From: Candidatus Wolfebacteria bacterium GW2011_GWA1_44_24
Lineage (GTDB): Bacteria; Patescibacteriota; Minisyncoccia; UBA6257; UBA9933
DNA: 64,000 nucleotides
Reading direction: 5' to 3'
NCBI GenBank assembly: GCA_001001115.1
Contig: LCIO01000002.1
Coordinates: forward strand, 2,848-66,847
The position numbers and the translations under genes are program-made. Shown here in pieces: positions 2 through 58,841 of this stretch (its first letter is position 1; each line of letters opens with the position of its first letter). The notes below the pieces were generated by a model that worked only from the letters and a program-made list of their open reading frames with translations, was not told the origin of the DNA and did not search any database.

Positions 2-1435
2 ATCCCAACCGCTCGGCACGGTTTCAATGATCGAAAAATTGGCGCCGTCTAATTCCGTGAATACATCAAAAAAACTTGAAATTTGATGTTCGGGCTGATT
101 TGTAGTGTCTAAATCAAAACCATTGTCTCCGCCAAGCCCGCTAAAATGAAATGTGCCGTCGTCTCCAATAGAAGTTTTAGTAACAGTAATACGCGCCGCT
201 TTTTTGTTAATAATAGTGCATGTCTTGGTTTCTCCTACGTTGATTTCTATATCAGCGCAATCATTACTCATATTTTGCCATAACGGCAAAGCCGATAAAT
301 CTTCCACTACGCCATATGTGCCGGGAGTAACTTCATAATCTTTGTCAGTCGCATCCGTTATTGTTCCCGCGCCTCCGTCGGTAATCGCGCCGCTACCGGA
401 CGCGGTAACGGGGAATTGAGTCGTATCGCCTTCGGGATACGTGGTTTTTTGAACTATTAAATGGCCCGTTGTCGCAATAACGCTCCCGGTAACAGCTACA
501 TCATCAACACGGAAATATTCATTATCATCACTGGAATCGTTGCGAAAACGCAGAAGAAACGAACCATCATTAACGCCGGAAACGAACGAGGAAAAAATCA
601 CTTGCGAACTCCAAGCAGAACCATCAAGATTATGCGAATTTATATTGGTCCACACCAAACCGTCAGAGCAACTGCCCGATGTTTTGTATTCTACAATACC
701 CTTATCGCTACTGCCATCTGCATCGGGGTCTTGTTTCCAGTAATAGCTTAATTGAATATTCTGATAACCGGAGGTATTAATGGTACGGCAAATATATTCA
801 TCGTCGCTGCCGTTATCATCTTCATTTCCTATTTTGGCGAATTTATTGGATAACAAAGTGTCCCGGGTTTGATCTTGCCCGGAACTGTTTGTTCCGGTAA
901 TAGAGGTATCTTCGGGGTCATTAGCGGGACCGCCTTCTGTCCAGCCGGCAACAACCTCGCTGTTTGAAGTTCCGAATGTGTCGGCAAACGGCAGAACAGC
1001 AATAGATTGTACCGTAACCGCGCCAGTCATTGTTCTTGTAGCGCTCGCGCCCACGGTGCATGAATCATCATTGTAAGCAATGAATTCAGCGTCATAGGTT
1101 CCCGCAGAGCCGGGCGCTGTGATAAGAAATGTCTCGCTGTTTGTACCGCCACTATTATGATTTCCATGATTAACACAGGTAAACGCGCCGGAGCCGATAC
1201 GCCATTGAGTCGCGCGCCAGTCGTTTGCGGAACCGCTCCCGGTACCCGTAACATTAACTGTCGCGATAATAGACGAACTCGGATCAACGCTTACGGCTGT
1301 TCCGCCGTTTAAATCCGTTCCCGAAACATTAACAGTAACGGTTGCGCTCACGAATGCCGGCTGTACCGCTACAAATAAAACAAACGCCCCAACTGCGGCA
1401 AATGCGATTATTTTGCCAAAGTATTTATAGTTCAT
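2..1435 (-). CDS. Secreted/cell-surface protein with complete N-terminus; the C-terminus runs off the window (478 codons visible). Signal/TM segment, Ig-like and jelly-roll-like modules, then prealbumin/Cna-B-like repeats
   Basis: Hand translation of the minus strand from ATG at 1435..1433 stays open to position 2. It is absent from the ORF track because it has no in-window stop. Sequence: MNYKYFGKIIAFAAVGAFVLFVAVQPAFVSATVTVNVSG...YFRVDDVAVTGSVIATTGHLIVQKTTYPEGDTTQFPVTASG...VTPGTYGVVE...GETKTCTIINKK...FSIIETVPSGWD. Hydrophobic N-terminus. Fold assignments are inference. Confidence 0.75.
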   Translation of the reverse strand, partial: MNYKYFGKIIAFAAVGAFVLFVAVQPAFVSATVTVNVSGTDLNGGTAVSVDPSSSIIATVNVTGTGSGSANDWRATQWRIGSGAFTCVNHGNHNSGGTNSETFLITAPGSAGTYDAEFIAYNDDSCTVGASATRTMTGAVTVQSIAVLPFADTFGTSNSEVVAGWTEGGPANDPEDTSITGTNSSGQDQTRDTLLSNKFAKIGNEDDNGSDDEYICRTINTSGYQNIQLSYYWKQDPDADGSSDKGIVEYKTSGSCSDGLVWTNINSHNLDGSAWSSQVIFSSFVSGVNDGSFLLRFRNDSSDDNEYFRVDDVAVTGSVIATTGHLIVQKTTYPEGDTTQFPVTASGSGAITDGGAGTITDATDKDYEVTPGTYGVVEDLSALPLWQNMSNDCADIEINVGETKTCTIINKKAARITVTKTSIGDDGTFHFSGLGGDNGFDLDTTNQPEHQISSFFDVFTELDGANFSIIETVPSGWD

Positions 1436-1442
1436 AATTACA

Positions 1443-1472
1443 ATAATAATAATATTTTTTTCATTTTGTCAA
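1443..1472 (-). promoter_or_regulatory. Sigma70-type promoter for the 2..1435 gene, at leaderless spacing
   Basis: The minus strand reads TTGACA (1472..1467), an 18-nt spacer, TATTAT (1448..1443), 7 nt (tgtaatt), then ATG at 1435. There is no Shine-Dalgarno. Confidence 0.6.
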
Positions 1473-1532
1473 GCAGTTGTATGAACAACCGAAACTTCCG
1501 ACAATTTATACCGGGCAAGCGGGTAAGGGTTA

Positions 1533-1604
1533 AGCGGGTAAGGGGAATCGAACCCCTGTCACCAGTTTGGAAAACTGGAGTAATAGCCATTATACGATAC
1601 CCGC
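1533..1604 (-). tRNA. tRNA-Gly (anticodon UCC)
   Basis: The minus strand reads GCGGGTATCGTATAATGGCTATTACTCCAGTTTTCCAAACTGGTGACAGGGGTTCGATTCCCCTTACCCGCT. Acceptor GCGGGTA/TACCCGC; anticodon stem CCAGT/ACTGG with loop TTTCCAA; T-arm AGGGG-TTCGATT-CCCCT; discriminator U. No CCA is encoded. Confidence 0.93.
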
Positions 1605-1684
1605 AATTTTTTTTATTATATCATTTTATACCCCAAATTGATAATTATTGAACATTCAATATAATATATGCTAAAATAATTTTA

Positions 1685-2296
1685 ATGTTATTTTCCGAAT
1701 TTTATCACAAAATTCCGCGGCGGGTCAAAATTTTCTGTGTTTTTATTTTGATTGTTCTGGCGGTTTATCTGTTGGTTTATTTTTTGACTCCCGTAGCGCA
1801 AAATGTGCCGGAAGAATTTTTAAGGGCGCGCCAGGAAGCGTCGCTGATTGCCAAAGACATTATTTTTATTTCGTCTCAAACAGCCGACAATATAAACAAA
1901 ATATCCGATTTGGACCGCGACAAAAATTACACCGAAGCGCTGAATTTGATTTCCGCCGAGCTGAACAATAATCGCGAGGCGCGGAACAAGGCCGTAAACC
2001 TTTCGGCTCAGCTGGAAATCATGACGAAAAACATTTCACAGATTTCTCCGCCCGTTGTTTCGCAGATTGCCCTGGAAGCGGTTGGTTCGGAAACCACCCT
2101 GATCAGCCGGCTGATCACTTACAACGATTATTTGGTCCAGCTTCTCGGAATTTTGCAGAAAAAATTTTTGGGGCAGGAAAAAAATAGCAATGAAAAAATA
2201 ACGGAATTGATAAGCAAAATAAACGAAGAGGCCAAAGCCATCAATAATTTAGACAAAAATTTCAACGATTTAATGAAGCAATTTGACGGTCAATGA
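1685..2296 (+). CDS. Hypothetical N-terminally membrane-anchored helical (coiled-coil-like) protein; first gene of the surface-protein island
   Basis: 203-aa ORF with one N-terminal TM (IFCVFILIVLAVYLLVYFLT) and a helical remainder rich in N/K/E/L. Its stop overlaps the next start (ATGA at 2293), suggesting co-translation with the 702-aa gene. Confidence 0.65.
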   Translation: MLFSEFYHKIPRRVKIFCVFILIVLAVYLLVYFLTPVAQNVPEEFLRARQEASLIAKDIIFISSQTADNINKISDLDRDKNYTEALNLISAELNNNREARNKAVNLSAQLEIMTKNISQISPPVVSQIALEAVGSETTLISRLITYNDYLVQLLGILQKKFLGQEKNSNEKITELISKINEEAKAINNLDKNFNDLMKQFDGQ

Positions 2297-15819: not shown

Positions 15820-16956
15820 ATGTATATTGAAATTGAACCCCGAGAAGAAGAGGAGTTAAAAAACGGATTAAAAAAAAGAAACGATTTTGAAGCCAAAAGA
15901 TTAAGCCGTTTTCTTGATTATCCGGATTTGACGCGCGATAAAAACAGCCCTTTATTTGAACTTGTCAGGCGCATTAAAAATATCGAACGTTTTTCCGATT
16001 TCGACGAAATCAAAATTCCGGAAATCGTTCGAGCCGATATTAGTTTTGATTTGTTTAATTTCCCCGCCGACCATCCCAGCCGGAGCCGTTCCGACACTTA
16101 TTACATTGACAACAACCACATTTTGCGAACCCACACCACGGTAATGTGGTATTACTATTTGAATCAGGAAATTATTAAAGAAAAAATTAAAAACAAGATG
16201 TCCATAGGAGCTCTTTCTTGCGGCAAAGTTTACCGCAAGGATGAAATAGACCGGAACCATATGAATGTTTTTCATCAGATTGACGGCTGGTATCTTTCTC
16301 CAAAATCAGAAAAAGTCGTCACCATCGACGATTTAAAAATAATTCTAACCGAAATCGCTCAAGCTATTTTCGGCAAAGACATAAAATTCAGGTTCAGCAT
16401 CGATAAGTTCCCTTACACCGACCCGAGCTGTGAGATGGAAATAGAAGTGGAAGGAAGGTGGGTGGAAGTTTTGGGTTCCGGCATTGTTCATCCGGTTGTT
16501 CTTAAAAATTTGGGAATTAATCCCGATGAATACAACGGTTGGGCGTTTGGTTTTGGATTGGAAAGATTGGCGATAATAAGCATGAGTCTTCCGGATATTC
16601 GTTTGCTTTGGTCCGATGATCCGAGGATTAAAAAACAGCTTATTTTAGGCAATAAATATGTCGCGGTCAGCAAATATCCGCCCATCACCAGAGATATATC
16701 GTTTGTGGTCGGCAAAGATTTCGTTCCCAATAATTATTTTGATTTAATAAGGGATATCGGCGGGAATTTGGCTGAAGAAGTGAAGCTGATTGATAAATAT
16801 GAAGATTTTGAAAAATTTGGAAAGAATAAAATCAGTTATACTTATCGTATAATTTATAGAAGCAATGACCGAACTTTGCTTTCAAGCGAAGTTGATAAAA
16901 TCCAAGAAGAAATATACACTGAAACAGCAAAACAATTTAACGCTGAATTGAGATAG
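15820..16956 (+). CDS. pheS: Phenylalanine--tRNA ligase, single-chain mitochondrial-type architecture (class IIc catalytic core + C-terminal FDX-ACB anticodon-binding domain)
   Basis: 378 aa. FPADHPSRSRSDTYYI..ILRTHTT, GKVYRKDEIDRNHMNVFHQIDG (motif 2), FPYTDPSCEMEIEVEGRWVEVLGSGI, GWAFGFGLERLAII (motif 3). Then SKYPPITRDISFVV...YFDLIRDIGGNLAEEVKLIDKYE...YRIIYRSNDRTLLSSEVDKIQEEI...AELR, the FDX-ACB pattern normally found at the PheT C-terminus or in mitochondrial FARS2. Confidence 0.85.
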   Translation: MYIEIEPREEEELKNGLKKRNDFEAKRLSRFLDYPDLTRDKNSPLFELVRRIKNIERFSDFDEIKIPEIVRADISFDLFNFPADHPSRSRSDTYYIDNNHILRTHTTVMWYYYLNQEIIKEKIKNKMSIGALSCGKVYRKDEIDRNHMNVFHQIDGWYLSPKSEKVVTIDDLKIILTEIAQAIFGKDIKFRFSIDKFPYTDPSCEMEIEVEGRWVEVLGSGIVHPVVLKNLGINPDEYNGWAFGFGLERLAIISMSLPDIRLLWSDDPRIKKQLILGNKYVAVSKYPPITRDISFVVGKDFVPNNYFDLIRDIGGNLAEEVKLIDKYEDFEKFGKNKISYTYRIIYRSNDRTLLSSEVDKIQEEIYTETAKQFNAELR

Positions 16957-20159: not shown

Positions 20160-20194
20160 TCCCATTCAAATGGGAGGGTATTTTTTTGTTTTTT
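20160..20194 (+). terminator. Candidate intrinsic terminator after mltG
   Basis: TCCCATT..AATGGGA short hairpin with a tight loop, followed by tatttttttgtttttt. It overlaps the rpoB ribosome-binding region (GGGAGGG). Confidence 0.4.
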
Positions 20195-32483: not shown

Positions 32484-32510
32484 ATTTTGCTGGAGAAGGA
32501 GGCTTAAAAT

Positions 32511-35947: not shown

Positions 35948-35986
35948 TACAATACATTATATACGAAACAATGAACGAAAAATAAT

Positions 35987-36905: not shown

Positions 36906-36913
36906 TTATCATT

Positions 36914-37240
36914 ATGATAACCGAAGAAATTTTGAAACAAATCAAATCCGGCGCTATGGTGCGGGTTTGGGAAAAGATAAAAGAAGGAGACAAAGAAAGA
37001 ACCAGCGCGTTTAAGGGAGTTGTTATTGCCCGAAAGCACGGCAAGGAAACGGGCGCGACTTTTACGGTCCGGGCGGAAATGAGCGGTATTGGCGTTGAAA
37101 AAATTTATCCCATCAATTCGCCGCTTATCGACAAGGTTGAAGTTTTAAGTTCTCCAAAAAAAGTTCATCGGGCTAAATTGTATTTTTTGAGAAAAGTCTC
37201 CAAGAAAGTTTCAAGACGGAAGATTGGCGTGGCGGTGTAA
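36914..37240 (+). CDS. rplS: 50S ribosomal protein L19
   Basis: 108 aa. ...GAMVRVWEKIKEGDKERTSAFKGVVIARKHGKETGATFTVRA...GVEKIYPINSPLIDKVEVL... Confidence 0.9.
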   Translation: MITEEILKQIKSGAMVRVWEKIKEGDKERTSAFKGVVIARKHGKETGATFTVRAEMSGIGVEKIYPINSPLIDKVEVLSSPKKVHRAKLYFLRKVSKKVSRRKIGVAV

Positions 37241-37354: not shown

Positions 37355-37378
37355 TAATCCCTTTTCAGAGATTTTTTG

Positions 37379-37412
37379 ATGGGCTTCCGCAACGGAAGCC
37401 CATTGTTTTTTT
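37379..37412 (+). terminator. Rho-independent terminator after rplS / tRNA-Leu
   Basis: ATGGGCTTCCG caa CGGAAGCCCAT followed by tgttttttt. 11-bp perfect stem. Confidence 0.88.
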
Positions 37413-37449
37413 AATGAATTTCGCGACATTTTGAGTTATAATTTTACGG

Positions 37450-39886: not shown

Positions 39887-40609
39887 TTACGCTTTCGCCA
39901 AAACCAGAGCGATAATTCTTCTCGCGCCGTTTTCTTTTAAAATTCTCACGGCTTCGTTCATTGTAGCGCCGGAAGTGAAAACGTCGTCAACCAGCAGAAT
40001 ATTTTTGTTTTTTATATTCTCGGCGTTTTGAACAGTAAAACAATTTTTAACATTTTTCGCTCTTTCTTCATTATCTTTCAATTTAGCTTGGGGCAAAGTA
40101 TTTTTCGTTCTTTTCAATCCGTTAATCATCGTCAAATTGAAATTGGCGGCGATAAATTCGGCAAGCGATTTTGACTGGTTAAATCCCCGCCGGCGCAAAC
40201 TCCGGGAAGAAAGGGGAACGGGAATTACGATATAATTTTCAATTTTCAATTTACAATTTTCAATATATTTTATCGTTAATTCTCCCAGAAGCGGCGATAG
40301 ATTTTCAAAACTTTCGTATTTAAAATAATGAATCAAGTTGCGGAGAATCGGGTCATCGTAATTTCCCGCGGCGGCCAAAAGATAAGAAAACGGCTGGTTT
40401 TTTTTGCCGTGATTGCAGATTTTTTTGTTATCCGCCAATCGCGCCCGGCAAACCGGACAGAATAAAGAGGTGTTGAGTTTAATGAGAGAAAAGCATTGAT
40501 TGCAAATCGGATTTTCGCCATTGGCGATATATTTTTGGCAATCCAAACAAATTAGCGGGAAAAGGACATCAAAAACGAGATTTTTTATTTTGATTAAAAA
40601 AAGAATCAT
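39887..40609 (-). CDS. comFC: ComF-family protein (ComFC-like phosphoribosyltransferase-fold competence protein)
   Basis: The track ORF extends to 40729, but the credible start is ATG 40609 (MILFLIKIKNLVFDVLFPLICLDCQKY...). Contains a double Cys zinc motif, and the PRTase motif ILLVDDVFTSGATMNEAVRIL at the C-terminus. Confidence 0.85.
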   Translation of the reverse strand: MILFLIKIKNLVFDVLFPLICLDCQKYIANGENPICNQCFSLIKLNTSLFCPVCRARLADNKKICNHGKKNQPFSYLLAAAGNYDDPILRNLIHYFKYESFENLSPLLGELTIKYIENCKLKIENYIVIPVPLSSRSLRRRGFNQSKSLAEFIAANFNLTMINGLKRTKNTLPQAKLKDNEERAKNVKNCFTVQNAENIKNKNILLVDDVFTSGATMNEAVRILKENGARRIIALVLAKA

Positions 40610-40622
40610 TGTTATAATTGTA
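40610..40622. promoter_or_regulatory. Overlapping divergent -10 elements in the 19-nt comFC/pilM intergenic gap
   Basis: Plus strand: TGtTATAAT (40610-40618), 10 nt before the pilM ATG at 40629. Minus strand: TACAAT (40622..40617), 7 nt before the comFC ATG at 40609. Confidence 0.5.
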
Positions 40623-40628
40623 GCAGAT

Positions 40629-41678
40629 ATGTTTGATTTTTTATCCCGTTCAACTCTTGGCGTTGATATCGGCACGGCTTCCATAAAAATCGTGGAAATC
40701 GCCAAATCTTTGCCAAAGCCGAAACTCAAAAATTACGGCATTCTCAGGTCTCGGACGTATTTGGAACGGCCCAACAGCGCCATTCAAACGAATAGTCTGA
40801 AAATCTTGGAAAAGGAAACCGCCGATTTGCTAAGAATTCTCGTTAAAAAAGCGAAATTCAAAAGTCGGAACGCGGTTGCTTCCATTCCTTCTTTTTCGGC
40901 TTTTACGACTCTTTTGGAAATGCCGATAATGTCAGGAGTCGATGTTTCAAAGACCATGCCGTTTCAGATTCGCCAGCACATTCCTTTGCCGGTTTCGGAA
41001 GTCGTCATTGATTGGAATAAAGTCGGCGAGCGGGAAGACGAAGAAGGATTGAAACAGCAGATTTTGATGATAGCCGTGCCGATTGAAATCAAAAACAAAT
41101 ACCAAAACATTTTTAAGCTGGCCGGTTTGAATTTAAAATCTTTGGAAACGGAAAGCGTCAGTTTGGTCAGAGCGCTGGCCGCGGCTGATCCCAGTCCGGC
41201 TTTAATAATCGACATCGGCGCCTATTCCACCAATATCGCGGTCAGCGAAAACGGATTTCTTAAAACCAATTTTTTCAGCGATTTTGCCGGAGCTTCGCTG
41301 ACAAAAGCGATTGCCAACGGCTTGAATATCGGCGTGAAAAGAGCCGAAGAACTAAAAAAGGAAAGGGGATTAATGGGTGGCGGAGGCGATTACGAGTTAT
41401 CCACATTGTCGGAGCCTCATTTGGATGTTATAATTGAAGAAACGAATAGGGCGAAAAACAATTATGAGAAGAGTTTCAGTCGGAAAATAGAGCGCGCCAT
41501 AATTGCCGGCGGCGGCGCCAATCTGCCTGGTATTGGAAATTATTTTGAAAAGCGGCTTGGAATGGCAACAACGATAGGCAGCGCTTTTTCTCGAATAAAT
41601 TATCCGCCGGAAATTGGATTATTCTCCAAAGAATTAGGCCCGGAATTCGCGGTTGCCGTCGGTCTGGGGCTTAAATAA
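40629..41678 (+). CDS. pilM: Type IV pilus assembly protein PilM (actin-like ATPase fold)
   Basis: The ATG at 40629 gives MFDFLSRSTLGVDIGTASIKIVEI... (349 aa). ...LIIDIGAYSTNIAV... and ...IIAGGGANLPGI.... Followed by PilN/PilO-like genes. Confidence 0.85.
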   Translation: MFDFLSRSTLGVDIGTASIKIVEIAKSLPKPKLKNYGILRSRTYLERPNSAIQTNSLKILEKETADLLRILVKKAKFKSRNAVASIPSFSAFTTLLEMPIMSGVDVSKTMPFQIRQHIPLPVSEVVIDWNKVGEREDEEGLKQQILMIAVPIEIKNKYQNIFKLAGLNLKSLETESVSLVRALAAADPSPALIIDIGAYSTNIAVSENGFLKTNFFSDFAGASLTKAIANGLNIGVKRAEELKKERGLMGGGGDYELSTLSEPHLDVIIEETNRAKNNYEKSFSRKIERAIIAGGGANLPGIGNYFEKRLGMATTIGSAFSRINYPPEIGLFSKELGPEFAVAVGLGLK

Positions 41679-49086: not shown

Positions 49087-49565
49087 CAAATTCCAATGAA
49101 AAAGGCTATTTATTGATTGAGGCGATGGTCGCCGCCACTCTTCTAATAGTCGGATTTTTGGGAGTTTTAGGACTAGTTTCCCAATCGCTCGGTTTAAGTC
49201 GTTTTGTTAGCGATGAATTTGCCGCTAATTATCTGGCGATGGAAGGCGTTGAAGTGGTGAAAAATTTGATTGACGCCAACACCATTAAAAATCAGCCGTG
49301 GAATCAGGGATTTTCCAGCGAAAAGTGCTATGAAATTGATTATAATACTTCTGACATCGGTTCGGCGACGGAAGTCAGATGTCCGGATGCCAGTTCTAAT
49401 TTTATTTCAATCAGCGGTAAAACCACTCCTTTCAAACGGACTGTCCACATTGTTCCGGTCAGCGCCGATGAAATTAAAGTCAATTCAATTGTTAAGTGGA
49501 GCGGCCGTGGCGGCGGAAAATTCGAGATAAATATGGAAGATCATTTTTTTAATTGGAGGCCATAA
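49083..49565 (+). CDS. Minor (pseudo)pilin with prepilin-like N-terminus
   Basis: 160 aa. ...NEKG|YLLIEAMVAATLLIVGFLG.... Confidence 0.7.
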   Translation: MTNSNEKGYLLIEAMVAATLLIVGFLGVLGLVSQSLGLSRFVSDEFAANYLAMEGVEVVKNLIDANTIKNQPWNQGFSSEKCYEIDYNTSDIGSATEVRCPDASSNFISISGKTTPFKRTVHIVPVSADEIKVNSIVKWSGRGGGKFEINMEDHFFNWRP

Positions 49566-49570
49566 TTTAT

Positions 49571-50110
49571 ATGAGAATTTTCAAAATCAAAAATGGTTTT
49601 ACCTTAGTTGAACTTATTGTTTCGATGGGATTATTTGTTGTCTTAACATCGATTGCCGTCGGCGGTTTTGTGAATGTTTTGAGAAATCAAAGAATAGCCG
49701 TGTCTCTGATAACGGTCAATGACAATACGGGTTTGACTTTGGAACAAATGGCGAGAGAAATCAGAACCGGTTATAATTTCAGTAAAATTTCCAATACCGA
49801 ATTGGAATTCGTTAATTCTTACAATTTTAAAGTGAAATATCGTTTAAATGGAGGAGCAATAGAAAAAGGAACGGAATTTTTCGGAACAACCAGTTATCAA
49901 AAAATCACGGCAGACAATGTTTTAATTTCCGTTTTTAATATCAATGTTTGTGGCAAAAACATTAACGGAACAACGCTTGGCAATTGCGGCAAAGGCGGCA
50001 ATCTTTATTTTCCGAGAATTACTTTGAATTTGTCTGTTACCAGCGCCGAACCGGATATCAAAAAATTAAATATTTTTACTGATATCCAAACGACTATCAG
50101 CGCCAGATAA
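49571..50110 (+). CDS. Minor (pseudo)pilin with prepilin N-terminal motif
   Basis: The ATG at 49571 gives MRIFKIKNG|FTLVELIVSMGLFVVLTS.... The track start at 49553 overlaps the upstream gene. Confidence 0.75.
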   Translation: MRIFKIKNGFTLVELIVSMGLFVVLTSIAVGGFVNVLRNQRIAVSLITVNDNTGLTLEQMAREIRTGYNFSKISNTELEFVNSYNFKVKYRLNGGAIEKGTEFFGTTSYQKITADNVLISVFNINVCGKNINGTTLGNCGKGGNLYFPRITLNLSVTSAEPDIKKLNIFTDIQTTISAR

Positions 50111-50121: not shown

Positions 50122-51489
50122 TCAATATTTAATTTCTCCGAAAAATACGGCGAAATTTTTATTTTGGTCGTTATAATCGATTAAATCTGTTTTTCCATCG
50201 GGCGCGATAATGCCGGCATAATCCCTTACGCCGCTCGCAATAATCGGCGTTTTCAGCCAAACCGCCTCGATTTTTCTTAAATTATTAGTCAGATACAGAA
50301 AGTGTTTTATTCCCATATCAAGCCAGCGGTTGCTTGTGGGATTGACGAAAAAGCGGACGCCCATTTTTTTATATTTTGCGAGAATTCCCGGATAATGGAT
50401 TTCCAGGCAGATTAGCGCGGCAAAAGGAATTTTCCCGTCAAGCATCAGAATTTTTTTCTCGCCAGAAGAATAAGCGTTTTGCGGATTAAAAACAACGTAA
50501 TTCTCGTATTGCGGCTTGTTTTTTTTAAGCCAATCAAAGAAAAACGGCCGCCATCTGCCAAAGGGCCAGTATTCGCCGATAAAAGTCAGCTGATTTTTAT
50601 TGTAAATATCCACAACTTCTCCGTTCTTATTCAACAAAAGAGTTGAATTGTATTTTTTATTGTTTTGAATGGTGTCAAAAGTAGCTAATAAATCGTTATT
50701 TAGATTTTTGGCTAGGTGTTGAAAATTAGCCGGAGAAAAATTTCCAGAATCGTCGTTAAAAATGTCTTCGGGAAAAATCAATAAATCAACCCGTTGAGCC
50801 GCCAATTCATTTTTAATTTGTTCGAATTGGGTTCTCTCAAATTTTTCACTAACGGAAACAACCGCGATTTTGAGAGAATTTTTAAGATTGCCGTAATCGG
50901 CTGAAATTTTTTTTAGTTGGTAATTTGAAAATCTCCAGGCGGCAATTATTAAAATAATTAAGAAGGCAGAATTAAGAATCAAGATTTTTTTGTTCAACGA
51001 GATTTTTAATATTAGAGCGACGATTAAAACGTTGATTATTGCCGTGAAAAAAATGAGAAGCGTTAATCCGCCGACAGCTGCCAGTCCCAAAAACGGCGAT
51101 GAACCGAAAATATTGCCGCTGGTCATAATAAAAGCCGGCAAAAAAGAATAACGGGCTTGGAGATAATCAAATAAAGTCCAGGCAAAAGGAAGAATAAAAA
51201 TTAACCGACCGGCCCCAGAAAGTTTTTTCATGATGAAAATCGTTATTGCTAGGCCGAGAAAAATTGAGAACGAGAAAAACCAAGTAATCGGTTCAAAAGT
51301 ATAATAGACGGTTCCGAGAGCAAAAATGAATCTAAAAATTAAAGTTCCGGCAACGAGCCGCCAGAATTTTTCTTCTTTAAGAAAGAAAATAAAAAGCGGC
51401 GCGAGAAAAACAAATCCCAAAATCCAAAAATAAGAGAACGGCAGAAAAGCCAAAATTCCCAAAAAAGCCGAAAAAACGGGCAAAATCAT
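50122..51489 (-). CDS. lnt: Apolipoprotein N-acyltransferase (Lnt): multi-TM N-terminus + CN-hydrolase domain
   Basis: 455 aa with about 7 N-terminal TMs. DLLIFPEDIF (Glu), YNKNQLTFIGEYWPFG (Lys...GEY.P), ALICLEIHYPG (Cys). Together these match the Lnt E-K-C triad pattern. TGaTATGAT lies 6 nt upstream of the ATG. Confidence 0.8.
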   Translation of the reverse strand: MILPVFSAFLGILAFLPFSYFWILGFVFLAPLFIFFLKEEKFWRLVAGTLIFRFIFALGTVYYTFEPITWFFSFSIFLGLAITIFIMKKLSGAGRLIFILPFAWTLFDYLQARYSFLPAFIMTSGNIFGSSPFLGLAAVGGLTLLIFFTAIINVLIVALILKISLNKKILILNSAFLIILIIAAWRFSNYQLKKISADYGNLKNSLKIAVVSVSEKFERTQFEQIKNELAAQRVDLLIFPEDIFNDDSGNFSPANFQHLAKNLNNDLLATFDTIQNNKKYNSTLLLNKNGEVVDIYNKNQLTFIGEYWPFGRWRPFFFDWLKKNKPQYENYVVFNPQNAYSSGEKKILMLDGKIPFAALICLEIHYPGILAKYKKMGVRFFVNPTSNRWLDMGIKHFLYLTNNLRKIEAVWLKTPIIASGVRDYAGIIAPDGKTDLIDYNDQNKNFAVFFGEIKY

Positions 51490-51526
51490 TTGATAATCAT
51501 ATCAAATTAAATCTTGCTCGACCATC

Positions 51527-51554
51527 TTGACATTTTTTAAATTAGGGATATAAT
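51527..51554 (+). promoter_or_regulatory. Consensus sigma70 promoter (TTGACA-16-TATAAT) for the 51611 gene
   Basis: TTGACAttttttaaattagggaTATAAT, then a ~55-nt leader with SD AAAGGAGG. It shares TTGACATTTTTTAAA and a downstream AGAATTA with the promoter at 52092. Confidence 0.75.
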
Positions 51555-51610
51555 TTCAATAGAATTATATTTTTTAACAACTTAATCCTAAACATAAAAA
51601 GGAGGCGAAA

Positions 51611-52066
51611 ATGAAAAAGATAGCGATTTTTTTGGTGATAATCACGGCGTTTTTTATCGGAATTTCTAACGCCGAGGCTACTAAGATGACGGTCGCAAGA
51701 TTGCCGGAACCCTTGATTGCCAATTTAATAATAGGCAAATGGAGTTTTATCGGGGAAACAAAAGAGGGAATCCTCGTAAAAGCCGTTATTGTTTTTGGAT
51801 TAGACGGGCAGGCGGAATTTTCAATTACTGCCTATAGTTTTGGTCTTCCGGTTTTAAACAGAAAGATATCCAGTCATTACAGTATCGGGGATGTAAACGG
51901 CAAATCCTATCTCTTTTTGAATCCAGGCGAAAGAGCATGGGTGACGGCGGAAATAATCAGTCTTGAGTTCGGAAGAATGAAACTCAGGGAAATAAGCAAC
52001 TCAAGCAATATCTTGGGGATTTCTTATCCGGCCTTGTGGGAAAGAATCGCGTCGCCGACGGAGTAA
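51611..52066 (+). CDS. Small secreted hypothetical protein
   Basis: 151 aa. Signal peptide MKKIAIFLVIITAFFIGISNAEA. Strong SD. The terminator hairpin includes the stop codon. Confidence 0.75.
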   Translation: MKKIAIFLVIITAFFIGISNAEATKMTVARLPEPLIANLIIGKWSFIGETKEGILVKAVIVFGLDGQAEFSITAYSFGLPVLNRKISSHYSIGDVNGKSYLFLNPGERAWVTAEIISLEFGRMKLREISNSSNILGISYPALWERIASPTE

Positions 52067-52086
52067 AATCCGTCGGTTTTTATTTT
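52055..52086 (+). terminator. Rho-independent terminator
   Basis: CCGACGGA gtaaaa TCCGTCGG ttttt. The stop codon TAA sits in the loop. Confidence 0.85.
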
Positions 52087-52091: not shown

Positions 52092-52119
52092 TTGACATTT
52101 TTTAAAAGACAAGTATAAT
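52092..52119 (+). promoter_or_regulatory. Consensus sigma70 promoter (TTGACA-16-TATAAT) for the 52181 gene
   Basis: TTGACAttttttaaaagacaagTATAAT, a ~60-nt leader, and SD GGAGGTGGGG. Confidence 0.75.
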
Positions 52120-52180
52120 ATAAACAGAATTACTTGAAATATAAATAAGAAAAAAATCCTTATATAAATGGAGGTGGGGA

Positions 52181-52693
52181 ATGAAGATAAAGATGATTTT
52201 AGCAGTTTTGATTTTAATAATGGTTTCAGGATGTTATTTGGTCCCCAGAAGCGAGATTAGGGCGGATAAATTTATCGCGCCCATCAAGATTGAAAGGGCG
52301 GCGCTTCTTGTTCAAACAACCGCTGATGCCACGGAAGAGGAAATGCAAATTCTGAGAGGATATTTAATCTCGGAATTAGAATCAATCCCCTTGGAAATAA
52401 CAAATGGGGATTATAATGATGAACAGGCGATAATTCTGGTTAATATCGCTGAAATAAAAAGAGTGGGTTTTTGGGAAAGATTTGGTGGAGGATTTACGGT
52501 TGCTCGTGCTTCTGTCAATATGAGGGTGAGCATAAACAGAGAGGGGAAAGAAATTGGAGTGTTCCATATTACCGGGGAATCTTCAAGAACCGGTCCAGGG
52601 GGAACAACACAAACTGCTTTGAAAATGGCTGCTAAGGCCATTAAAAAGCAGTTATTGGTCTTTATTGCGTCAAAAAAAGAGGCTCTTCAATAG
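52181..52693 (+). CDS. Predicted lipoprotein (hypothetical)
   Basis: 170 aa. MKIKMILAVLILIMVSG|C lipobox (VSGC). Confidence 0.75.
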   Translation: MKIKMILAVLILIMVSGCYLVPRSEIRADKFIAPIKIERAALLVQTTADATEEEMQILRGYLISELESIPLEITNGDYNDEQAIILVNIAEIKRVGFWERFGGGFTVARASVNMRVSINREGKEIGVFHITGESSRTGPGGTTQTALKMAAKAIKKQLLVFIASKKEALQ

Positions 52694-52706
52694 GCCTCTT
52701 TTTATT
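52677..52706 (+). terminator. Rho-independent terminator
   Basis: AAGAGGC tcttcaatag GCCTCTT tttattttt. Confidence 0.7.
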
Positions 52707-52756
52707 TTTATGTTTATCCACAGTTGTTATATAATTTATATGATATAATAAAAACA

Positions 52757-55066
52757 ATGAATAATTTTTTCCAAAATAAATTTTTTATAACTTTTTTAAT
52801 TTTGGCGATAGCGATTTACGGTTTTTCGACGAAAATGGCGCAAGCCAGCGGAGTTTTTAATTTTCTAACCTTTGTTTTTAGTATTGTTATTACGACGGTT
52901 CTTTGGAGTGTGGGCGTTCCAATACCGCCATTATGGTCTTTGGTTGGTATGAGTTCTCTTGGCGCGAGTATCGGCATTGGTCAAGCTATTTGTCTTCTCG
53001 GCGCTGATAACTCTTATTGGTCCGGTTGTAGCGGCGGCAACATCGGCGGCGTGGCAATTATCGCTCCCACTTTGATTCCTTCCATAGCCGGAGAATGCCG
53101 AGTGGGTTTGGTTCTACCTTCTTTTTATGAACCCTGGTCTGGGCAAAGCATTGGAACAGCAAGCGCGATAACATTGGGTTCTAAATTATTCGAACCCATC
53201 ACATACACCAACTATTTATCCAACGAAGTCAATAAACTCGGAGGAGAATATAAGGATTTGCCTTTGTCGGACGTTTCTCTCAGCGGTAATGTTTTTGCCG
53301 GTAGTTTCACTATAGAATACAATGTTTCAACTTCGACTAAAACCATTGTTCCCAAAACAATCGCGACCAATTCTTTAAAAACAATGAGCCAGTTCCGCCA
53401 GAGTTACGGCGATATTATATTAAAAGGAACATTTTCCGCGTTACAACAATCTCCAGGTCCTGGCGGCCCTCCCGGTTCTGAACAAACCTATTCTTCCACT
53501 TCCACTCCTGAGCAATTCATCAAAGACGGCAAATTCTTTTCCGCTTTTGCTTCCACAAACAGCGGTTATAAAGCAACTATTATTTCCGACATTGAAAATT
53601 GTTCAGCCGCCGGAGAATTCGATTCCAACTGCCAGCTTCTTTTCCAGCCCAAAGGCAAAACAATCCAATATCCGATAATCAACTTCGGTTCTTTTTTGGG
53701 GGACAGTCAGAGGGCCTCATATTCAAAACGGCCGACTTTCTCGGCTTTTCGGATAATTCCACCGCCGTTGGACGAATCGGAGTTTGACGCGGAATTGTAC
53801 CGGTTCGCTTTGCCCGACCCCAAAATCGCCAATCCCAATTTGACGGATAAACAGCTCAAAGATATCCTCACCGCCTGGTACTATAACGTTCCTTATCTCG
53901 GCGGCGATAAAGTTTTCAGCATAACCGCCGGCCCGGGAATTTATAATTTCAGTTTGGGTAGCCAAAATATTTTGATGAAAATCGCCACCACCACTTATCC
54001 CAATATGTCCCGTTATTGGACGCCACCCAATGACGGTCATTTCTATCGCTTTAAACAAGTAGGCGTCCCCGGCTATACCGAACCAACGGCAACTCCGGAA
54101 ATCCTTGACCGCGGCAACAACGTTGTTTATGAAAGAGTTAAAATTTCTTCCTATAAATACAAAAATGTTTGCGCTGTGGGCATTTGCAATCTGATAGACC
54201 ATGCTCCGCCGGAAGGCAAATATTTGATTTATATCGCCAAAATCAAAGGCAATTTTGGCCAAATTTATGAATATGTTTCTTTACCTTCTACGCTTATTCC
54301 AGTCGCTTCAAAATATCTCAATGTTAACAAACTCCAAAGCTCCTGGTTCTCCTGGTATTGGAATAACTGTGATGACGACGGCTGCGATTTATACAAAGGC
54401 GACAGCAACATCGCTTACGGCCCCTTGGCGCCCATTGTTTTGCCTTCCCAAGATTCCTGCGAAGTCGCGGCTGATGTCAGAATTACGGCTGTCAGTTGCG
54501 ATGCCGTTACTCTTTTGACAACGGTTCCTTTTGTGGACCAGGCCAAATTCGCCGGTTATGACGTCTACCGGGACAACAATCTCATTGCTTCCAATATCCC
54601 CATCAACCAGCCGGTTTTTGAAGACAAAGGGCTTTCCAAGAGAATGGAATATACCTACAAAGTCGTTGTCAAAACAACGGACGGCATGGCCCAAGATTTC
54701 AATCTGCCGGCTGTCAAAACAGTTTGCATTCCCGAGTGTTCCTTGTCGGCCAGTCCTAATTCTCTAGTTTATCCTTCAAGTCAAACCAAGGTTTCCTGGC
54801 AATGTCAGGAAGCGGATTCCTGCATTTTAACAAGCTCCAATTTGCCCGAGAATTATCCCACCGCTGATCAATTTTGTTCCAGTATCAACGGTTCAATCAA
54901 GGAAACTGGCTGCCAAGTCAACAATACCAGCTACGCTTCTCCTTCTTTGACTTTGGACCAAACCACCACTTTTATTCTGGCCTGTCAAAACATTGATGGC
55001 GCTTCTACCAACGCCGCCACCGTGGATTTTTTAAGGCCGAAGAGAATGGAAATAATACCGCGGTAG
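52757..55066 (+). CDS. Large membrane-associated/extracellular hypothetical protein (N-terminal TM cluster, C-terminal FN3/Ig-like modules)
   Basis: The ATG at 52757 (MNNFFQNKFFITFLILAIAIYGF...) is preceded by TGaTATAAT at 7 nt; the track start TTG 52724 is less likely. Several N-terminal hydrophobic segments. C-terminal ...AGYDVYRDNNLIASNIPINQPVFEDKGLSKRMEYTYKVVV... (FN3-like) and Cys-rich Ig-like ends. Confidence 0.75.
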   Translation: MNNFFQNKFFITFLILAIAIYGFSTKMAQASGVFNFLTFVFSIVITTVLWSVGVPIPPLWSLVGMSSLGASIGIGQAICLLGADNSYWSGCSGGNIGGVAIIAPTLIPSIAGECRVGLVLPSFYEPWSGQSIGTASAITLGSKLFEPITYTNYLSNEVNKLGGEYKDLPLSDVSLSGNVFAGSFTIEYNVSTSTKTIVPKTIATNSLKTMSQFRQSYGDIILKGTFSALQQSPGPGGPPGSEQTYSSTSTPEQFIKDGKFFSAFASTNSGYKATIISDIENCSAAGEFDSNCQLLFQPKGKTIQYPIINFGSFLGDSQRASYSKRPTFSAFRIIPPPLDESEFDAELYRFALPDPKIANPNLTDKQLKDILTAWYYNVPYLGGDKVFSITAGPGIYNFSLGSQNILMKIATTTYPNMSRYWTPPNDGHFYRFKQVGVPGYTEPTATPEILDRGNNVVYERVKISSYKYKNVCAVGICNLIDHAPPEGKYLIYIAKIKGNFGQIYEYVSLPSTLIPVASKYLNVNKLQSSWFSWYWNNCDDDGCDLYKGDSNIAYGPLAPIVLPSQDSCEVAADVRITAVSCDAVTLLTTVPFVDQAKFAGYDVYRDNNLIASNIPINQPVFEDKGLSKRMEYTYKVVVKTTDGMAQDFNLPAVKTVCIPECSLSASPNSLVYPSSQTKVSWQCQEADSCILTSSNLPENYPTADQFCSSINGSIKETGCQVNNTSYASPSLTLDQTTTFILACQNIDGASTNAATVDFLRPKRMEIIPR

Positions 55067-55109
55067 GAAAATTGAAAGGTCGCAATAATTTCAATATAGT
55101 TTTATAAAA

Positions 55110-55382
55110 ATGAACGGAGAATCAAATCAATTTAAGAAATGGTTTTGGGTCGGAATGGCAATGGGATTTTTCAATCTCGCGGCCGGTTTGGTTTACGGCA
55201 TTGTTTTGGCCTTGGAAAAAGAACATCGCCAAGAAGGCTTGATTATAATCGGTTGGACGATTGCTTGGACTTTAATCGGTTTCTTTTTAATCGGTCCTTG
55301 GCTGGTTAAATCGGGATATATGCCGAGATTTCAGATGATTAACAGAGAAGAAATGATGGGGGGAGGAATGATGGGATATTAA
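55110..55382 (+). CDS. Small 3-TM membrane protein with Met/Gly-rich tail
   Basis: 90 aa. WFWVGMAMGFFNLAAGLVYGIVLAL, LIIIGWTIAWTLIGFFLIGPWLV, and the tail EEMMGGGMMGY. Confidence 0.55.
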   Translation: MNGESNQFKKWFWVGMAMGFFNLAAGLVYGIVLALEKEHRQEGLIIIGWTIAWTLIGFFLIGPWLVKSGYMPRFQMINREEMMGGGMMGY

Positions 55383-55771: not shown

Positions 55772-57829
<2,058 letters not shown>

Positions 57830-57837
57830 TTTTAGCG

Positions 57838-57846
57838 TGATATAAT
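57838..57846 (+). promoter_or_regulatory. Extended -10 element (TGaTATAAT) 8 nt upstream of the trpS ATG
   Basis: gcgTGaTATAAT ttaaaatc ATG (57855). No SD. Confidence 0.5.
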
Positions 57847-57854
57847 TTAAAATC

Positions 57855-58841
57855 ATGAAAAGAGTTTTTTCGGGGGTGGCGCCAAGCGGTAATCTTCATA
57901 TTGGAAATTATTTGGGAGCTATCAGTCAGTGGCTGGAATTGCAAAAACATCATAATTGCGTTTTTTCCGTGGCTGATTATCACGCGATGACGATTTTTCA
58001 ACCAGCGGAAAAATTGCGCGAAAAAATTTTGGAAATCGCGATGATTTATCTGGCCGCCGGCATTGACCCGAAAAAATCCGTTATTTTTATCCAATCCGAC
58101 GTGTTGGAACACGCGGAATTAACCTGGATTTTGAATACTATCACTAAAATTCCGGAGTTGGAATTGATGACTCAATTCAAAGATAAAGCCAGAAGATTCA
58201 GAAATAAAGTCAATGTCGGGCTGTTTGATTATCCGGTTTTAATGGCGGCCGATATTTTGCTTTATAAAGCAGATTTTGTGCCGGTGGGAGAAGACCAAAA
58301 ACAGCACTTGGAATTTACAAGAACCATTGCTAGAAGATTTAACGGTTTATATGGCGAAACCTTTATTGTTCCGGAAGCGCTTATTATGAAAGAAAGCGCT
58401 AAAATTATGGGGCTTGACGATCCAAATAAGAAAATGTCTAAAAGCGCGGAAAATCCGCATAACTATCTCGGATTAACCGATGAGCCGGCGTTGATTAAAG
58501 AAAAAATAAAAAGGGCGGTTACCGATTCCGGAGATGGAATAATTTATGATAAAGAAAAGAAGCCGGGAATTTTCAATCTTTTGACGATTTATTCTTTACT
58601 CTCTGGAAAATCGATTCAAAAATTGGAAAAAGAGTATAAAAATAAAAACTACGGAGAATTTAAAAAAGATTTGGCAGATGTTGTGATCGGTTTTCTTTCG
58701 CCTTTCCAGAAAAAATTTGAAAAATTAGGAAAGAACAAAAATCATGTCAGGAGGATTTTAGCCGACGGTTCAAAAAAAGCTCGCTTGATTGCCCAAAAAA
58801 ATATAAAAGAAATTAAAAATAAAGTCGGATTAAATTATTAA
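57855..58841 (+). CDS. trpS: Tryptophan--tRNA ligase
   Basis: 328 aa. SGVAPSGNLHIGNYLGA (HIGH) and KMSKS (KKMSKSAENP). Confidence 0.95.
   Translation: MKRVFSGVAPSGNLHIGNYLGAISQWLELQKHHNCVFSVADYHAMTIFQPAEKLREKILEIAMIYLAAGIDPKKSVIFIQSDVLEHAELTWILNTITKIPELELMTQFKDKARRFRNKVNVGLFDYPVLMAADILLYKADFVPVGEDQKQHLEFTRTIARRFNGLYGETFIVPEALIMKESAKIMGLDDPNKKMSKSAENPHNYLGLTDEPALIKEKIKRAVTDSGDGIIYDKEKKPGIFNLLTIYSLLSGKSIQKLEKEYKNKNYGEFKKDLADVVIGFLSPFQKKFEKLGKNKNHVRRILADGSKKARLIAQKNIKEIKNKVGLNY

What the first reader, a model, noticed from the sequence alone, without database searches (positions are those of the whole stretch)
1433..57857. Recurrent -10 hexamer at fixed N6-N8 spacing from the start codon: many mRNAs appear leaderless, alongside a minority with long leaders and strong SD
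Reading the 25 nt upstream of every gene that follows a gap shows the same geometry again and again.

Perfect TATAAT, 7 or 8 nt before the ATG:
- pheS: 15807-15812, N7
- the 29470 gene: minus strand, TGcTATAAT, N7
- dprA: 35961..35956, N8
- recG: 37437-37442, N7
- pilT: TGaTATAAT 44827-44835, N7
- the 52757 gene: TGaTATAAT 52741-52749, N7
- trpS: TGaTATAAT 57838-57846, N8

Near-consensus hexamers at the same spacing:
- 1435 gene: TTGACA-18-TATTAT-N7
- 1685: TAAAAT-N7
- secD: TAAAAT-N8
- 12011: TTGACA-18-TATATT-N6
- rel: TTGAAA-17-TACTAT-N8
- rplS: TTGACA-17-TACTAT-N8
- comFC: TACAAT-N7
- lnt: TGaTATGAT-N6

None of these has a Shine-Dalgarno. Bacterial transcription usually starts about 7 nt after the -10 hexamer, so the A of the ATG would be the transcript 5' end.

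A second class does have leaders and strong SDs: rpoB GGGAGGG, 32511 AAGGAGG, 51611 AAAGGAGG, 52181 GGAGGTGG, 63857 GGAGG. Seven perfect TATAAT boxes locked to one spacing are hard to attribute to AT-richness alone.
Basis: partly seen in the sequence, partly recalled or inferred. Interest (0 to 1): 0.6.

Follow-up and report, generated by a model that had tools for sequence, protein, structure and literature searches.

The report
Leaderless-gene promoters in a Wolfebacterium
In this ultra-small groundwater bacterium (Candidatus Wolfebacteria, candidate phyla radiation), about 40% of transcription units have the promoter's -10 box 6-8 bases before the ATG, so their mRNAs probably start at or next to the start codon with no ribosome-binding leader: a known bacterial strategy that I found no report of for this lineage.

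Summary

- **Window statistics:** 7 of 59 curated genes have a perfect TATAAT 6-8 nt before the ATG, against 0.28 expected (0 of 2000 shuffles). Eleven have a 5/6 or better TAnnnT, against 1.9. All lie before unit-first genes and none before 25 operon-internal genes.
- **Promoter evidence:** the 18 boxes at N6-N10 carry TGn extensions (8/18 against 5% background) and -35 boxes (4 perfect TTGACA).
- **Start codons:** family profiles and orthologues confirm them.
- **Relatives:** the same peak appears (13 of 130 first genes against 1.5 expected), including before orthologous recG and pilT.
- **Minority class:** six genes have GGAGG at SD spacing. Three have near-consensus or perfect promoters 40-55 nt upstream.

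This is the known leaderless-gene signature (GeneMarkS-2 "group C"), here in Candidatus Wolfebacteria GW2011_GWA2_42_10. It differs in that internal genes also lack SD, and one relative's 16S has lost the anti-SD. Transcript 5' ends are inferred, not mapped. Verdict: new member of a known kind, of moderate interest.

The parts
1433..1472 (-). TTGACA(1472-1467)-18-TATTAT(1448-1443)-N7-ATG(1435-1433). Gene for a 1353-aa SpaA/Big-like surface protein that runs off the window's left end.
1648..1687 (+). TTGAAC-18-TGcTAAAAT(1672-1677)-N7-ATG 1685 (orf203, first gene of a unit)
9781..9820 (+). TTGATT-17-TAAAAT(9804-9809)-N8-ATG 9818 (secD)
11975..12013 (+). TTGACA-18-TATATT(11999-12004)-N6-ATG 12011 (protein with sigma-70 region 4 plus a HARE-HTH domain)
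15807..15822 (+). TATAAT-N7-ATG 15820 (single-chain PheRS); no -35 box and no TGn
29468..29486 (-). TGcTATAAT(29483-29478)-N7-ATG 29470 (orf219, membrane-anchored Pro/Thr-rich protein)
32444..32483 (-). TTGAAA-17-TACTAT(32460-32455)-N8-ATG 32446 (rel). It overlaps the divergent leadered promoter of the 32511 gene.
35945..35961 (-). TATAAT(35961-35956)-N8-ATG 35947 (dprA-topA operon)
36877..36916 (+). TTGACA-17-TACTAT(36900-36905)-N8-ATG 36914 (rplS)
37377..37452 (+). 13-bp-stem intrinsic terminator (37377-37405) with its T-run, then TATAAT(37437-37442)-N7-ATG 37450 (recG)
40607..40631 (.). Bidirectional pair in a 19-bp intergenic region. comFC(-) has TGcTACAAT(40622-40617)-N7-ATG 40609. pilM(+) has TGtTATAAT(40613-40618)-N10-ATG 40629. 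The two -10 boxes overlap by 2 bp.
   Evidence: the same arrangement occurs in L167
44806..44845 (+). TTGAGG-18-TGaTATAAT(44830-44835)-N7-ATG 44843 (pilT). The TGA of the extended -10 is the stop codon of pilB.
51487..51504 (-). TGaTATGAT(51501-51496)-N6-ATG 51489 (lnt)
52674..52759 (+). Terminator 52674-52703, then TGaTATAAT(52744-52749)-N7-ATG 52757 (orf769, large membrane or surface protein)
57818..57857 (+). TTGTCT-17-TGaTATAAT(57841-57846)-N8-ATG 57855 (trpS)
26935..26975 (+). TTGACA-16-GATAAT-N10-ATG 26973 (rpsF). Near-leaderless: a leader of about 2-4 nt is expected, with no SD.
55072..55112 (+). TTGAAA-17-TATAGT-N9-ATG 55110 (orf90). Near-leaderless.
51527..52077 (+). Leadered, SD-led unit. 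Perfect TTGACA-16-TATAAT (51527-51554), leader of about 50 nt, AAAGGAGG, ATG 51611 (151-aa protein with a signal peptide), terminator 52054-52077.
52092..52703 (+). Leadered, SD-led unit. Perfect TTGACA-16-TATAAT (52092-52119), leader of about 55 nt, GGAGGTGG, ATG 52181 (170-aa predicted lipoprotein), terminator 52674-52703. The orthologue in L167 keeps the SD.
32436..32513 (+). TTGACA-17-TATTCT (32436-32464), leader of about 40 nt, AAGGAGG, ATG 32511 (orf101)
20160..20197 (+). rpoB leader. The SD GGGAGGG is partly inside hairpin 20160-20175. Its spacing (8 nt) fits TTG 20186 better than ATG 20195.
63855..63876 (-). GAGGAGG 9 nt before ATG 63857 (C39-peptidase-like orf182)
49555..49573 (+). 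GGAGG 11 nt before ATG 49571. This is the only operon-internal gene with a strong SD (pilin-like orf179).

Best explanation
These are sigma-70-type promoters placed so that RNA polymerase starts transcription at, or 1-2 nt before, the A of the ATG. Many are extended -10 (TGn) promoters and some have good -35 boxes.

The first gene of about 40% of transcription units (15 of about 36; 18 if N9-N10 is included) is therefore carried on an mRNA with no 5' leader and no Shine-Dalgarno. It would be translated by direct binding of the ribosome with initiator tRNA to the 5'-terminal AUG.

Operon-internal genes also lack SD. They sit behind A-rich, G-poor sequence or overlap the previous stop codon (ATGA). 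They presumably depend on coupling, re-initiation or unstructured-RNA initiation.

A handful of genes keep the classical arrangement of a strong promoter, a 40-55 nt leader and GGAGG. These include two small secreted or lipoprotein genes and rpoB.

Shown here: the geometry, its statistics, the promoter features, the correctness of the start codons, and conservation in relatives. Inferred: the exact 5' ends and the mode of ribosome recruitment.
For: - Positional peak at N7/N8 only. 7 perfect and 11 near-perfect -10 boxes at N6-8, against 0.28 and 1.9 in shuffles.
- Found only before unit-first genes: 0 of 25 internal genes in the window and 0 perfect of 52 internal genes in relatives.
- Promoter hallmarks among the 18 sites, compared with all 1991 TAnnnT sites of the window: TGn 8/18 against 5% (p about 1e-6); -35 at 4/6 or better 11/18 against 14% (p about 4e-6); perfect TTGACA 4/18 against 0.5%.
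- Terminators lie directly upstream of the recG and orf769 promoters.
- Start codons are confirmed by profile alignments: trpS residue 2 to profile position 3, recG 4 to 4, dprA 2 to 4, pilM 8 to 4, rel 14 to 13. PilT matches from residue 1. RecG N-termini align across 9 lineages.
- Relatives (RecG 63-87% identical, plus L001 and L002): 13 perfect boxes among 130 first genes against 1.5 expected (0 of 300 shuffles); 28 at 5/6 or better against 8.6.
- Orthologue-level conservation despite divergent spacers. recG has a -10 at N6/N7 in the window, L165, L166, L168, L169 and L170. pilT has one in the window (N7), L001 (N8), L002 (N6) and L167 (N6).
- The geometry matches published knowledge. Transcription starts are centred 7 bp after the -10 box and promoters are strongest at 7-8 bp (PMC12641261). 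The Pribnow box lies 6-8 nt from the start codon in leaderless 'group C' genomes (PMC6028130).
- There is no G-rich peak upstream of first or internal genes.
Against: - No transcript 5'-end data exist for this organism. With N8 (5 genes) or N9-N10 (3 genes) the transcription start may leave 1-4 nt of leader.
- Only 7 of the 18 sites have the favoured pyrimidine at -1.
- Several of these genes follow a same-strand gene by only 13-25 nt (pilT, pheS, trpS). Read-through polycistronic transcripts probably coexist, so the leaderless form may not be the main one.
- Three boxes (pheS, dprA, recG) have neither TGn nor a -35 box.
- The signal is weaker and shifted to N6 in more distant Patescibacteria, and was not seen in L003/L004.
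Confidence: 0.8

Rival explanations
1. The boxes are real promoters but secondary, internal ones. Most protein would come from longer polycistronic or leadered transcripts. The leaderless species would be minor or condition-specific.
For: pilT, pheS and trpS lie 13-25 nt behind same-strand genes with no terminator between them. Internal genes are evidently translated without SD in this organism, so a leader is not needed for translation either way.
Against: Many sites have no possible upstream same-strand transcript.
- Divergent pairs: dprA/orf172, rel/orf101, lnt/orf151, comFC/pilM.
- Sites that follow strong terminators: recG and orf769.

The geometry is conserved in relatives where gene order differs.
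Confidence: 0.12
2. UAUAAU-like sequence 6-8 nt before the AUG is an RNA-level, SD-independent ribosome-binding or enhancer element on leadered mRNAs. It could act through AU-rich sequence, protein S1, or in the manner of Bacteroidetes 'group B' sites. On this view it is not a promoter.
For: The organism uses SD rarely (6 of 59 genes). The region upstream of internal genes is A-rich and G-poor. One relative has lost the anti-SD, so some non-SD mechanism must exist.
Against: A translational signal should also precede internal genes, and it does not (0/25 in the window, 0/52 perfect in relatives). The TGn dinucleotide and TTGACA at 16-18 bp upstream are DNA-level promoter features with no role in ribosome binding. 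Two overlapping boxes on opposite strands serve divergent genes.
Confidence: 0.05
3. Chance co-occurrence in AT-rich intergenic DNA, or wrongly placed start codons.
For: The window is 58% A+T and holds 74 TATAAT. One TATAAT-N7-ATG (10630/10643) lies inside secD and looks like chance.
Against: 0 of 2000 dinucleotide shuffles reach the observed counts. The peak is confined to N7/N8. The starts are confirmed by profiles and orthologues. It is replicated in independent genomes.
Confidence: 0.01

Closest known systems
Leaderless-gene architecture of GeneMarkS-2 'group C' bacteria (Mycobacterium tuberculosis, Corynebacterium, Streptomyces, Deinococcus deserti)
   Same: A TANNNT/Pribnow box lies 6-8 nt before the start codon of first-in-operon genes. 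This applies to 25-50% of units, and the motif is absent before internal genes (PMC6028130). Here it applies to about 42% of units at N6-N8.
   Different: - Those genomes are nearly all high-GC Actinobacteria or Deinococcus-Thermus; this one is 42% GC Patescibacteria.
- In group C the remaining genes are modelled as SD-led. Here internal genes almost never have SD (1 of 25).
- Here the box is often the full TATAAT with a TGn extension rather than a bare TANNNT.
- In those organisms leaderless starts are experimentally mapped; here they are not.
Low-GC group C genomes with genetic code 4 (Mycoplasma)
   Same: A low-GC reduced genome, with 30-60% of transcripts predicted to be leaderless from a promoter motif at the start codon (MetaGeneMark-2 preprint).
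   Different: A different phylum and genetic code. TGA is a stop codon here; for example, pilB ends in the TGA that forms the TGn of the pilT promoter. According to that preprint, almost all group C genomes with code 11 are high-GC.
SD-poor initiation in Bacteroidetes and relatives (GeneMarkS-2 'group B')
   Same: Few SD sites, and A-rich, G-poor sequence just upstream of start codons, including internal genes.
   Different: In group B one non-SD motif precedes all genes and cannot be a promoter. Here the TATAAT motif is restricted to first genes and carries promoter features.
Anti-SD loss in Parcubacteria (Tsurumaki et al. 2022, RNA 28:1041; PMC9297842)
   Same: The same broad lineage. The anti-SD motif was detected in only 48% of Parcubacteria. 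I confirmed one case: the L171 16S ends GGAAUAACUAAAUU instead of GGAUCACCUCCUUU.
   Different: The passages of that paper I searched (SD, anti-SD, bS1 and initiation) describe the rRNA, not what replaces SD on the mRNA side. The window's own organism still has functional-looking SD sites before six genes, so its anti-SD is probably intact. This is inferred; its 16S could not be retrieved.

Membership tests
Leaderless-gene architecture (GeneMarkS-2 group C type) | A -10/TANNNT promoter motif sharply localised about 6-8 nt upstream of the start codon in a substantial fraction of first-in-operon genes | tested here: met
   15 of about 36 unit-first genes at N6-N8. 7 perfect boxes against 0.28 expected and 11 near-perfect against 1.9, with 0 of 2000 shuffles reaching either count.
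Leaderless-gene architecture (GeneMarkS-2 group C type) | The motif is absent upstream of operon-internal genes, which shows it is a promoter and not a ribosome-binding site | tested here: met
   0 of 25 internal genes in the window; 0 perfect and 3 near-perfect (2.1 expected) of 52 in relatives.
Leaderless-gene architecture (GeneMarkS-2 group C type) | The remaining genes (internal and leadered first genes) use SD-type ribosome-binding sites | tested here: not met
   Only 6 of 59 genes have a strong SD, and only 1 of 25 internal genes. There is no G peak upstream of internal genes. This lowers the fit to the group C model but not the leaderless reading.
Leaderless-gene architecture (GeneMarkS-2 group C type) | Primary transcript 5' ends mapped at the start codon (5'UTR of 0 to about 5 nt) | not testable with these tools
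   No RNA data are available. Inferred from the rule that the transcription start lies about 7-8 bp after the -10 box.
Sigma-70 extended -10 / canonical promoters | TGn immediately upstream of the -10 hexamer, or a TTGACA-like -35 box at 16-18 bp | tested here: met
   TGn in 8/18 against 5% background. A -35 box at 4/6 or better in 11/18 against 14%. Perfect TTGACA in 4/18 against 0.5%. Two perfect 12/12 promoters elsewhere in the window show the consensus is used.
Non-SD ribosome-binding-site genomes (group B, Bacteroidetes type) | The same non-SD motif upstream of both first and internal genes | tested here: not met
   The TATAAT-type motif precedes first genes only. Only a generic A-richness is shared.
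Canonical SD-led initiation | A GGAGG-type motif 5-10 nt upstream of the start, complementary to the 16S 3' tail | tested here: met
   Met for six genes. Five GGAGG lie 3-12 nt before starts against 0.28 expected, and rpoB has one. The organism's own 16S tail could not be read.

The most novel reading that the evidence does not exclude
Wolfebacteria and neighbouring Paceibacteria may run an almost SD-free translation-initiation regime.
- Leaderless mRNAs would be the default for unit-first genes.
- Internal genes would be translated by coupling or by initiation on A-rich, unstructured sequence.
- SD pairing would be retained only as a booster for a few very highly expressed genes.

This window would be an intermediate stage on the path to the complete loss of the anti-SD seen in a relative (L171) and reported for about half of Parcubacteria. 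That would give a mechanistic mRNA-side counterpart to the reduced ribosomes of the candidate phyla radiation.
Probability: 0.4. Interest if true: 0.6.

Novelty: new member of a known kind. Interest (0 to 1): 0.45.

Why it matters
[quoted passage not shown] How its mRNAs recruit ribosomes is essentially undescribed. I found no paper in the searchable library that links leaderless mRNAs to this group. This locus and its relatives give a concrete, testable picture: promoters fused to start codons, very little SD, and anti-SD loss in a relative.

2. **Annotation.** Gene finders that lean on SD motifs will misplace starts in these genomes. Two NCBI records call recG from an ATT codon, 1 and 6 codons after an ATG that sits 6 nt behind a perfect TATAAT. 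Using a -10-at-N6-8 model would improve start calls in Paceibacteria genomes assembled from metagenomes.

3. **Genetics and expression work.** For emerging work in Patescibacteria, these compact promoter/ATG cassettes and the two perfect-consensus promoter, leader and SD cassettes (51527-51610, 52092-52180) are ready-made native expression signals.

Tried and rejected
- **Metagenome scan with TrpS.** The best hit was 54% identical and there were no close relatives, so it was not used.
- **Start-agnostic histogram over all 36 Patescibacteria PilT loci.** The signal was diluted by in-frame internal ATGs (a 3-nt periodicity). I replaced it with gene-based profiles that separate first from internal genes.
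- **L003/L004 (PilT 73-77% identical).** No clear peak among 31 genes, so the trait is not uniform.
- **The window organism's own 16S.** It is not in the window, nor in the 5 kb beyond either end. I considered fishing for spurious ORFs inside the rRNA and dropped the idea as a long shot.
- **Nanosynbacter lyticus TSS paper (PMID 35975994).** This is the only transcription-start data set for the radiation that I found. It is not held in the library.
- **A repeat or mobile promoter cassette.** Rejected by eye: the seven TATAAT sites share nothing beyond the hexamer and TGn.
- **A motif complementary to the mutated 16S tail of L171 upstream of its genes.** None found, but only 16 genes were available.
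Full report
**Source and setting.** The window is 42% G+C and compact, with 7 tRNAs and no rRNA. Its RecG is 100% identical to that of 'Candidatus Wolfebacteria bacterium GW2011_GWA2_42_10'. The same sequence lies on a 105-kb ENA contig and, for the left part, in NCBI assembly GCA_000997755.1. PilT relatives are all Patescibacteria/Paceibacterota genomes assembled from metagenomes. Independent gene calls on those contigs agree with the starts I used.

**The observation.**
- One clarification: the '1435 gene' is on the minus strand. It encodes a 1353-aa surface protein that runs off the window, which is why it is missing from ORF lists. Its arrangement is TTGACA-18-TATTAT-N7-ATG.
- comFC is also on the minus strand, with its ATG at 40609.

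**Statistics in the window, without using annotation.** The window has 74 TATAAT on both strands. Eight are followed at N7 or N8 by an ATG that opens 80 or more codons. The other 39 spacings from 0 to 40 hold 6 such events in total. Seven of the eight are true gene starts. The eighth (10630/10643) is an in-frame internal Met of secD and is compatible with the chance rate.

**Statistics in the window, using 59 curated genes.**
- Perfect TATAAT at N6-8 occurs 7 times, against 0.28 +/- 0.54 in dinucleotide-preserving shuffles of the proximal 40 nt.
- 5/6 or better TAnnnT occurs 11 times, against 1.88. No shuffle of 2000 reaches either count.
- All lie before the 34 genes that start a unit (gap of 12 nt or more, or divergent). 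None lies before the 25 internal genes.
- Adding the 1435 gene, comFC, rel and rplS (TACTAT with good -35 boxes) gives 15 of about 36 unit-first genes at N6-N8 (N6: 2, N7: 8, N8: 5).
- Three more lie at N9-N10: rpsF, pilM and orf90.

**Are they promoters?** I compared the 18 sites with all 1991 TAnnnT sites in the window.

| Feature | 18 sites | Background | p |
|---|---|---|---|
| TGn extension | 8/18 | 5% | about 1e-6 |
| -35 box at 4/6 or better, 16-18 bp upstream | 11/18 | 14% | about 4e-6 |
| Perfect TTGACA | 4/18 | 0.5% | about 2e-6 |

- Only pheS, dprA and recG have neither feature.
- recG and the 52757 gene sit directly behind strong intrinsic terminators (37377-37405 and 52674-52703).
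- comFC and pilM diverge from a 19-bp intergenic region that holds two overlapping -10 boxes on opposite strands. The same design, with a 14-bp intergenic region, occurs in relative L167.
- These features belong to DNA-level promoter recognition. They argue against an RNA-level ribosome-binding role for the hexamer.

**Are the start codons right?** Profile alignments begin at the first residues: TrpS residue 2 to profile position 3, RecG 4 to 4, DprA 2 to 4, PilM 8 to 4, Rel 14 to 13, TopA 3 to 1. PilT matches relatives from residue 1. RecG N-termini of nine lineages align within 2-5 residues of the Met. For most of these genes the ATG is also the first possible start in the ORF.

**Relatives.** I fetched eight loci around RecG orthologues (63-87% identical). 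With L001 and L002 they give 130 unit-first and 52 internal genes.
- Perfect TATAAT at N6-8: 13 against 1.5 expected (0 of 300 shuffles), and against 0-1 at control spacings.
- 5/6 or better: 28 against 8.6.
- Internal genes: 0 perfect.
- The mode is N6-N7.
- At the orthologue level, recG has a -10 at N6/N7 in the window, L165, L166, L168, L169 and L170. pilT has one in the window (N7), L001 (N8), L002 (N6) and L167 (N6). The spacer sequences differ.
- More distant Patescibacteria (L005-L036) show a weaker N6 peak: 8 perfect against 2.0 expected. L003/L004 show none.

**The SD-bearing minority.** GGAGG occurs 60 times in the window. Five lie 3-12 nt before starts, against 0.28 expected. rpoB adds GGGAGGG, whose spacing suggests the real start is TTG 20186.
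- Genes 51611 and 52181 encode small proteins, one with a signal peptide and one with a lipoprotein signal.
- Each of these two genes has a perfect 12/12 TTGACA-16-TATAAT promoter, a leader of about 50-55 nt, a strong SD and a terminator.
- 32511 has a 10/12 promoter and a leader of about 40 nt. Its promoter overlaps the divergent leaderless-type rel promoter.
- The orthologue of 52181 in L167 keeps its SD.
- The organism therefore has a working SD/anti-SD interaction but uses it rarely. Only 6 of 59 genes have a strong SD, and only 1 of 25 internal genes.
- Upstream of internal genes the sequence is A-rich (45-57% A) and G-poor (3-11% G), with no SD peak. ATGA overlaps are the commonest junction.

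**A relative without an anti-SD.** L171 (RecG 65% identical) carries a complete 16S. Its 3' end reads GGAAUAACUAAAUU where the bacterial consensus is GGAUCACCUCCUUU. None of its 16 genes has an SD. This agrees with Tsurumaki et al. 2022, who detected the anti-SD in only 48% of Parcubacteria (PMC9297842).

**Mechanism.** Across 49 bacteria the transcription start is centred 7 bp downstream of the -10 box. Promoters are strongest when it is 7-8 bp downstream, and the start favours a purine followed by a pyrimidine (PMC12641261).
- With N6-N8 the A of the ATG is the 7th to 9th base, and A-T supplies the purine-pyrimidine step.
- The best-supported reading is therefore transcription starting at, or 1-2 nt before, the AUG. 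Translation would follow by direct ribosome and initiator-tRNA binding to the 5' AUG.
- This is exactly the signature used to define leaderless genes in 'group C' genomes, where the Pribnow box lies 6-8 nt from the start of first genes in operons (PMC6028130).
- Not shown: the real 5' ends, and how much of each protein comes from leaderless rather than read-through transcripts.

**Comparison with what is known, and novelty.** Leaderless architecture is well known in Actinobacteria, Deinococcus-Thermus, archaea and some Mycoplasma.
- Full-text searches combining 'leaderless' or 'Shine-Dalgarno' with names for the candidate phyla radiation, Patescibacteria and Parcubacteria found no description of leaderless genes in this group. 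They found only the rRNA-side anti-SD observation.
- The MetaGeneMark-2 preprint states that almost all group C genomes with genetic code 11 are high-GC, so a 42% GC example is atypical.
- The case also departs from the group C model because internal genes lack SD.
- I rate it a new member of a known kind. It gains some interest from the link to ribosome reduction and anti-SD loss in this radiation, and from its practical consequences for start-codon annotation.

Noticed in passing
window 15820-16956; L165 8606-9757; L166 8035-9186; L167 11600-12730: The 'pheS' here is a single-chain PheRS of 378 aa. It has the PheS catalytic core fused to a C-terminal FDX-ACB/PheT-like domain. It scores just under the cut-offs of the mitochondrial-type PheRS model (243 against 258 bits) and of the 'PheS-related mystery ligase SrmL' model (236 against 300). 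It is conserved in relatives. Its stop codon abuts tRNA-Glu (16956-17033), which is followed by tsaD.
   Followed up: partly
window 12011-13000: A 329-aa protein begins directly with sigma-70 region 4 (residues 2-64) and also carries a HARE-HTH/RNA-polymerase-delta-like domain (about 205-266). It has no sigma regions 1-3. It is expressed from a near-consensus promoter (TTGACA-18-TATATT-N6-ATG). The same architecture is called on three other contigs.
   Followed up: partly
L165 9998-10003; L166 9983-10003: NCBI gene calls for recG in two relatives start at ATT codons. An in-frame ATG lies 1 and 6 codons upstream respectively, and each is 6 nt after a perfect TATAAT. These are probably misplaced starts.
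   Followed up: partly
L171 17394-18872: This complete 16S rRNA has a 3' tail of GGAAUAACUAAAUU, so the CCUCC anti-Shine-Dalgarno is lost. The 23S and 5S genes lie on the other strand about 9 kb away, so the rRNA genes are unlinked.
   Followed up: yes
window 40607-40631; L167 15825-15840: Divergent comFC and pilM are separated by only 19 bp (14 bp in L167), with two -10 boxes on opposite strands that overlap each other. This is a minimal bidirectional promoter.
   Followed up: yes
window 20160-20197: The rpoB Shine-Dalgarno GGGAGGG is half buried in a small hairpin (TCCCATTCAAATGGGA). Its spacing points to TTG 20186, not ATG 20195, as the rpoB start.
   Followed up: no
window 51611-52066 and 52181-52693: Two small genes of unknown function, one with a signal peptide and one with a lipobox. 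Each has a perfect 12/12 consensus promoter, a strong SD and its own terminator, so they are probably among the most highly expressed genes of the region. No family matched either.
   Followed up: partly
proteins P0013, P0014, P0026, P0062, P0094, P0101, P0108: Some RecG homologues of this clade are 855-911 aa long and carry an inserted GxxExxY (PF13366) domain.
   Followed up: no
window 10630-10645: TATAAT-N7-ATG lies in frame inside secD (Met 276). This is probably chance, but it could give an internal leaderless start.
   Followed up: no
L172 5903-7265: A bAvd-like gene lies next to a reverse transcriptase (RVT_1). This looks like a diversity-generating retroelement in a relative.
   Followed up: no
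window 62830-62847: The divergent Mur-ligase (minus strand, ATG 62832) and NlpC/P60 (plus strand, ATG 62845) genes have start codons only 12 nt apart. Only weak -10 candidates are present (CATAAT N9 or AATAAT N6; CATTAT N9). The promoters must lie inside each other's coding region.
   Followed up: partly
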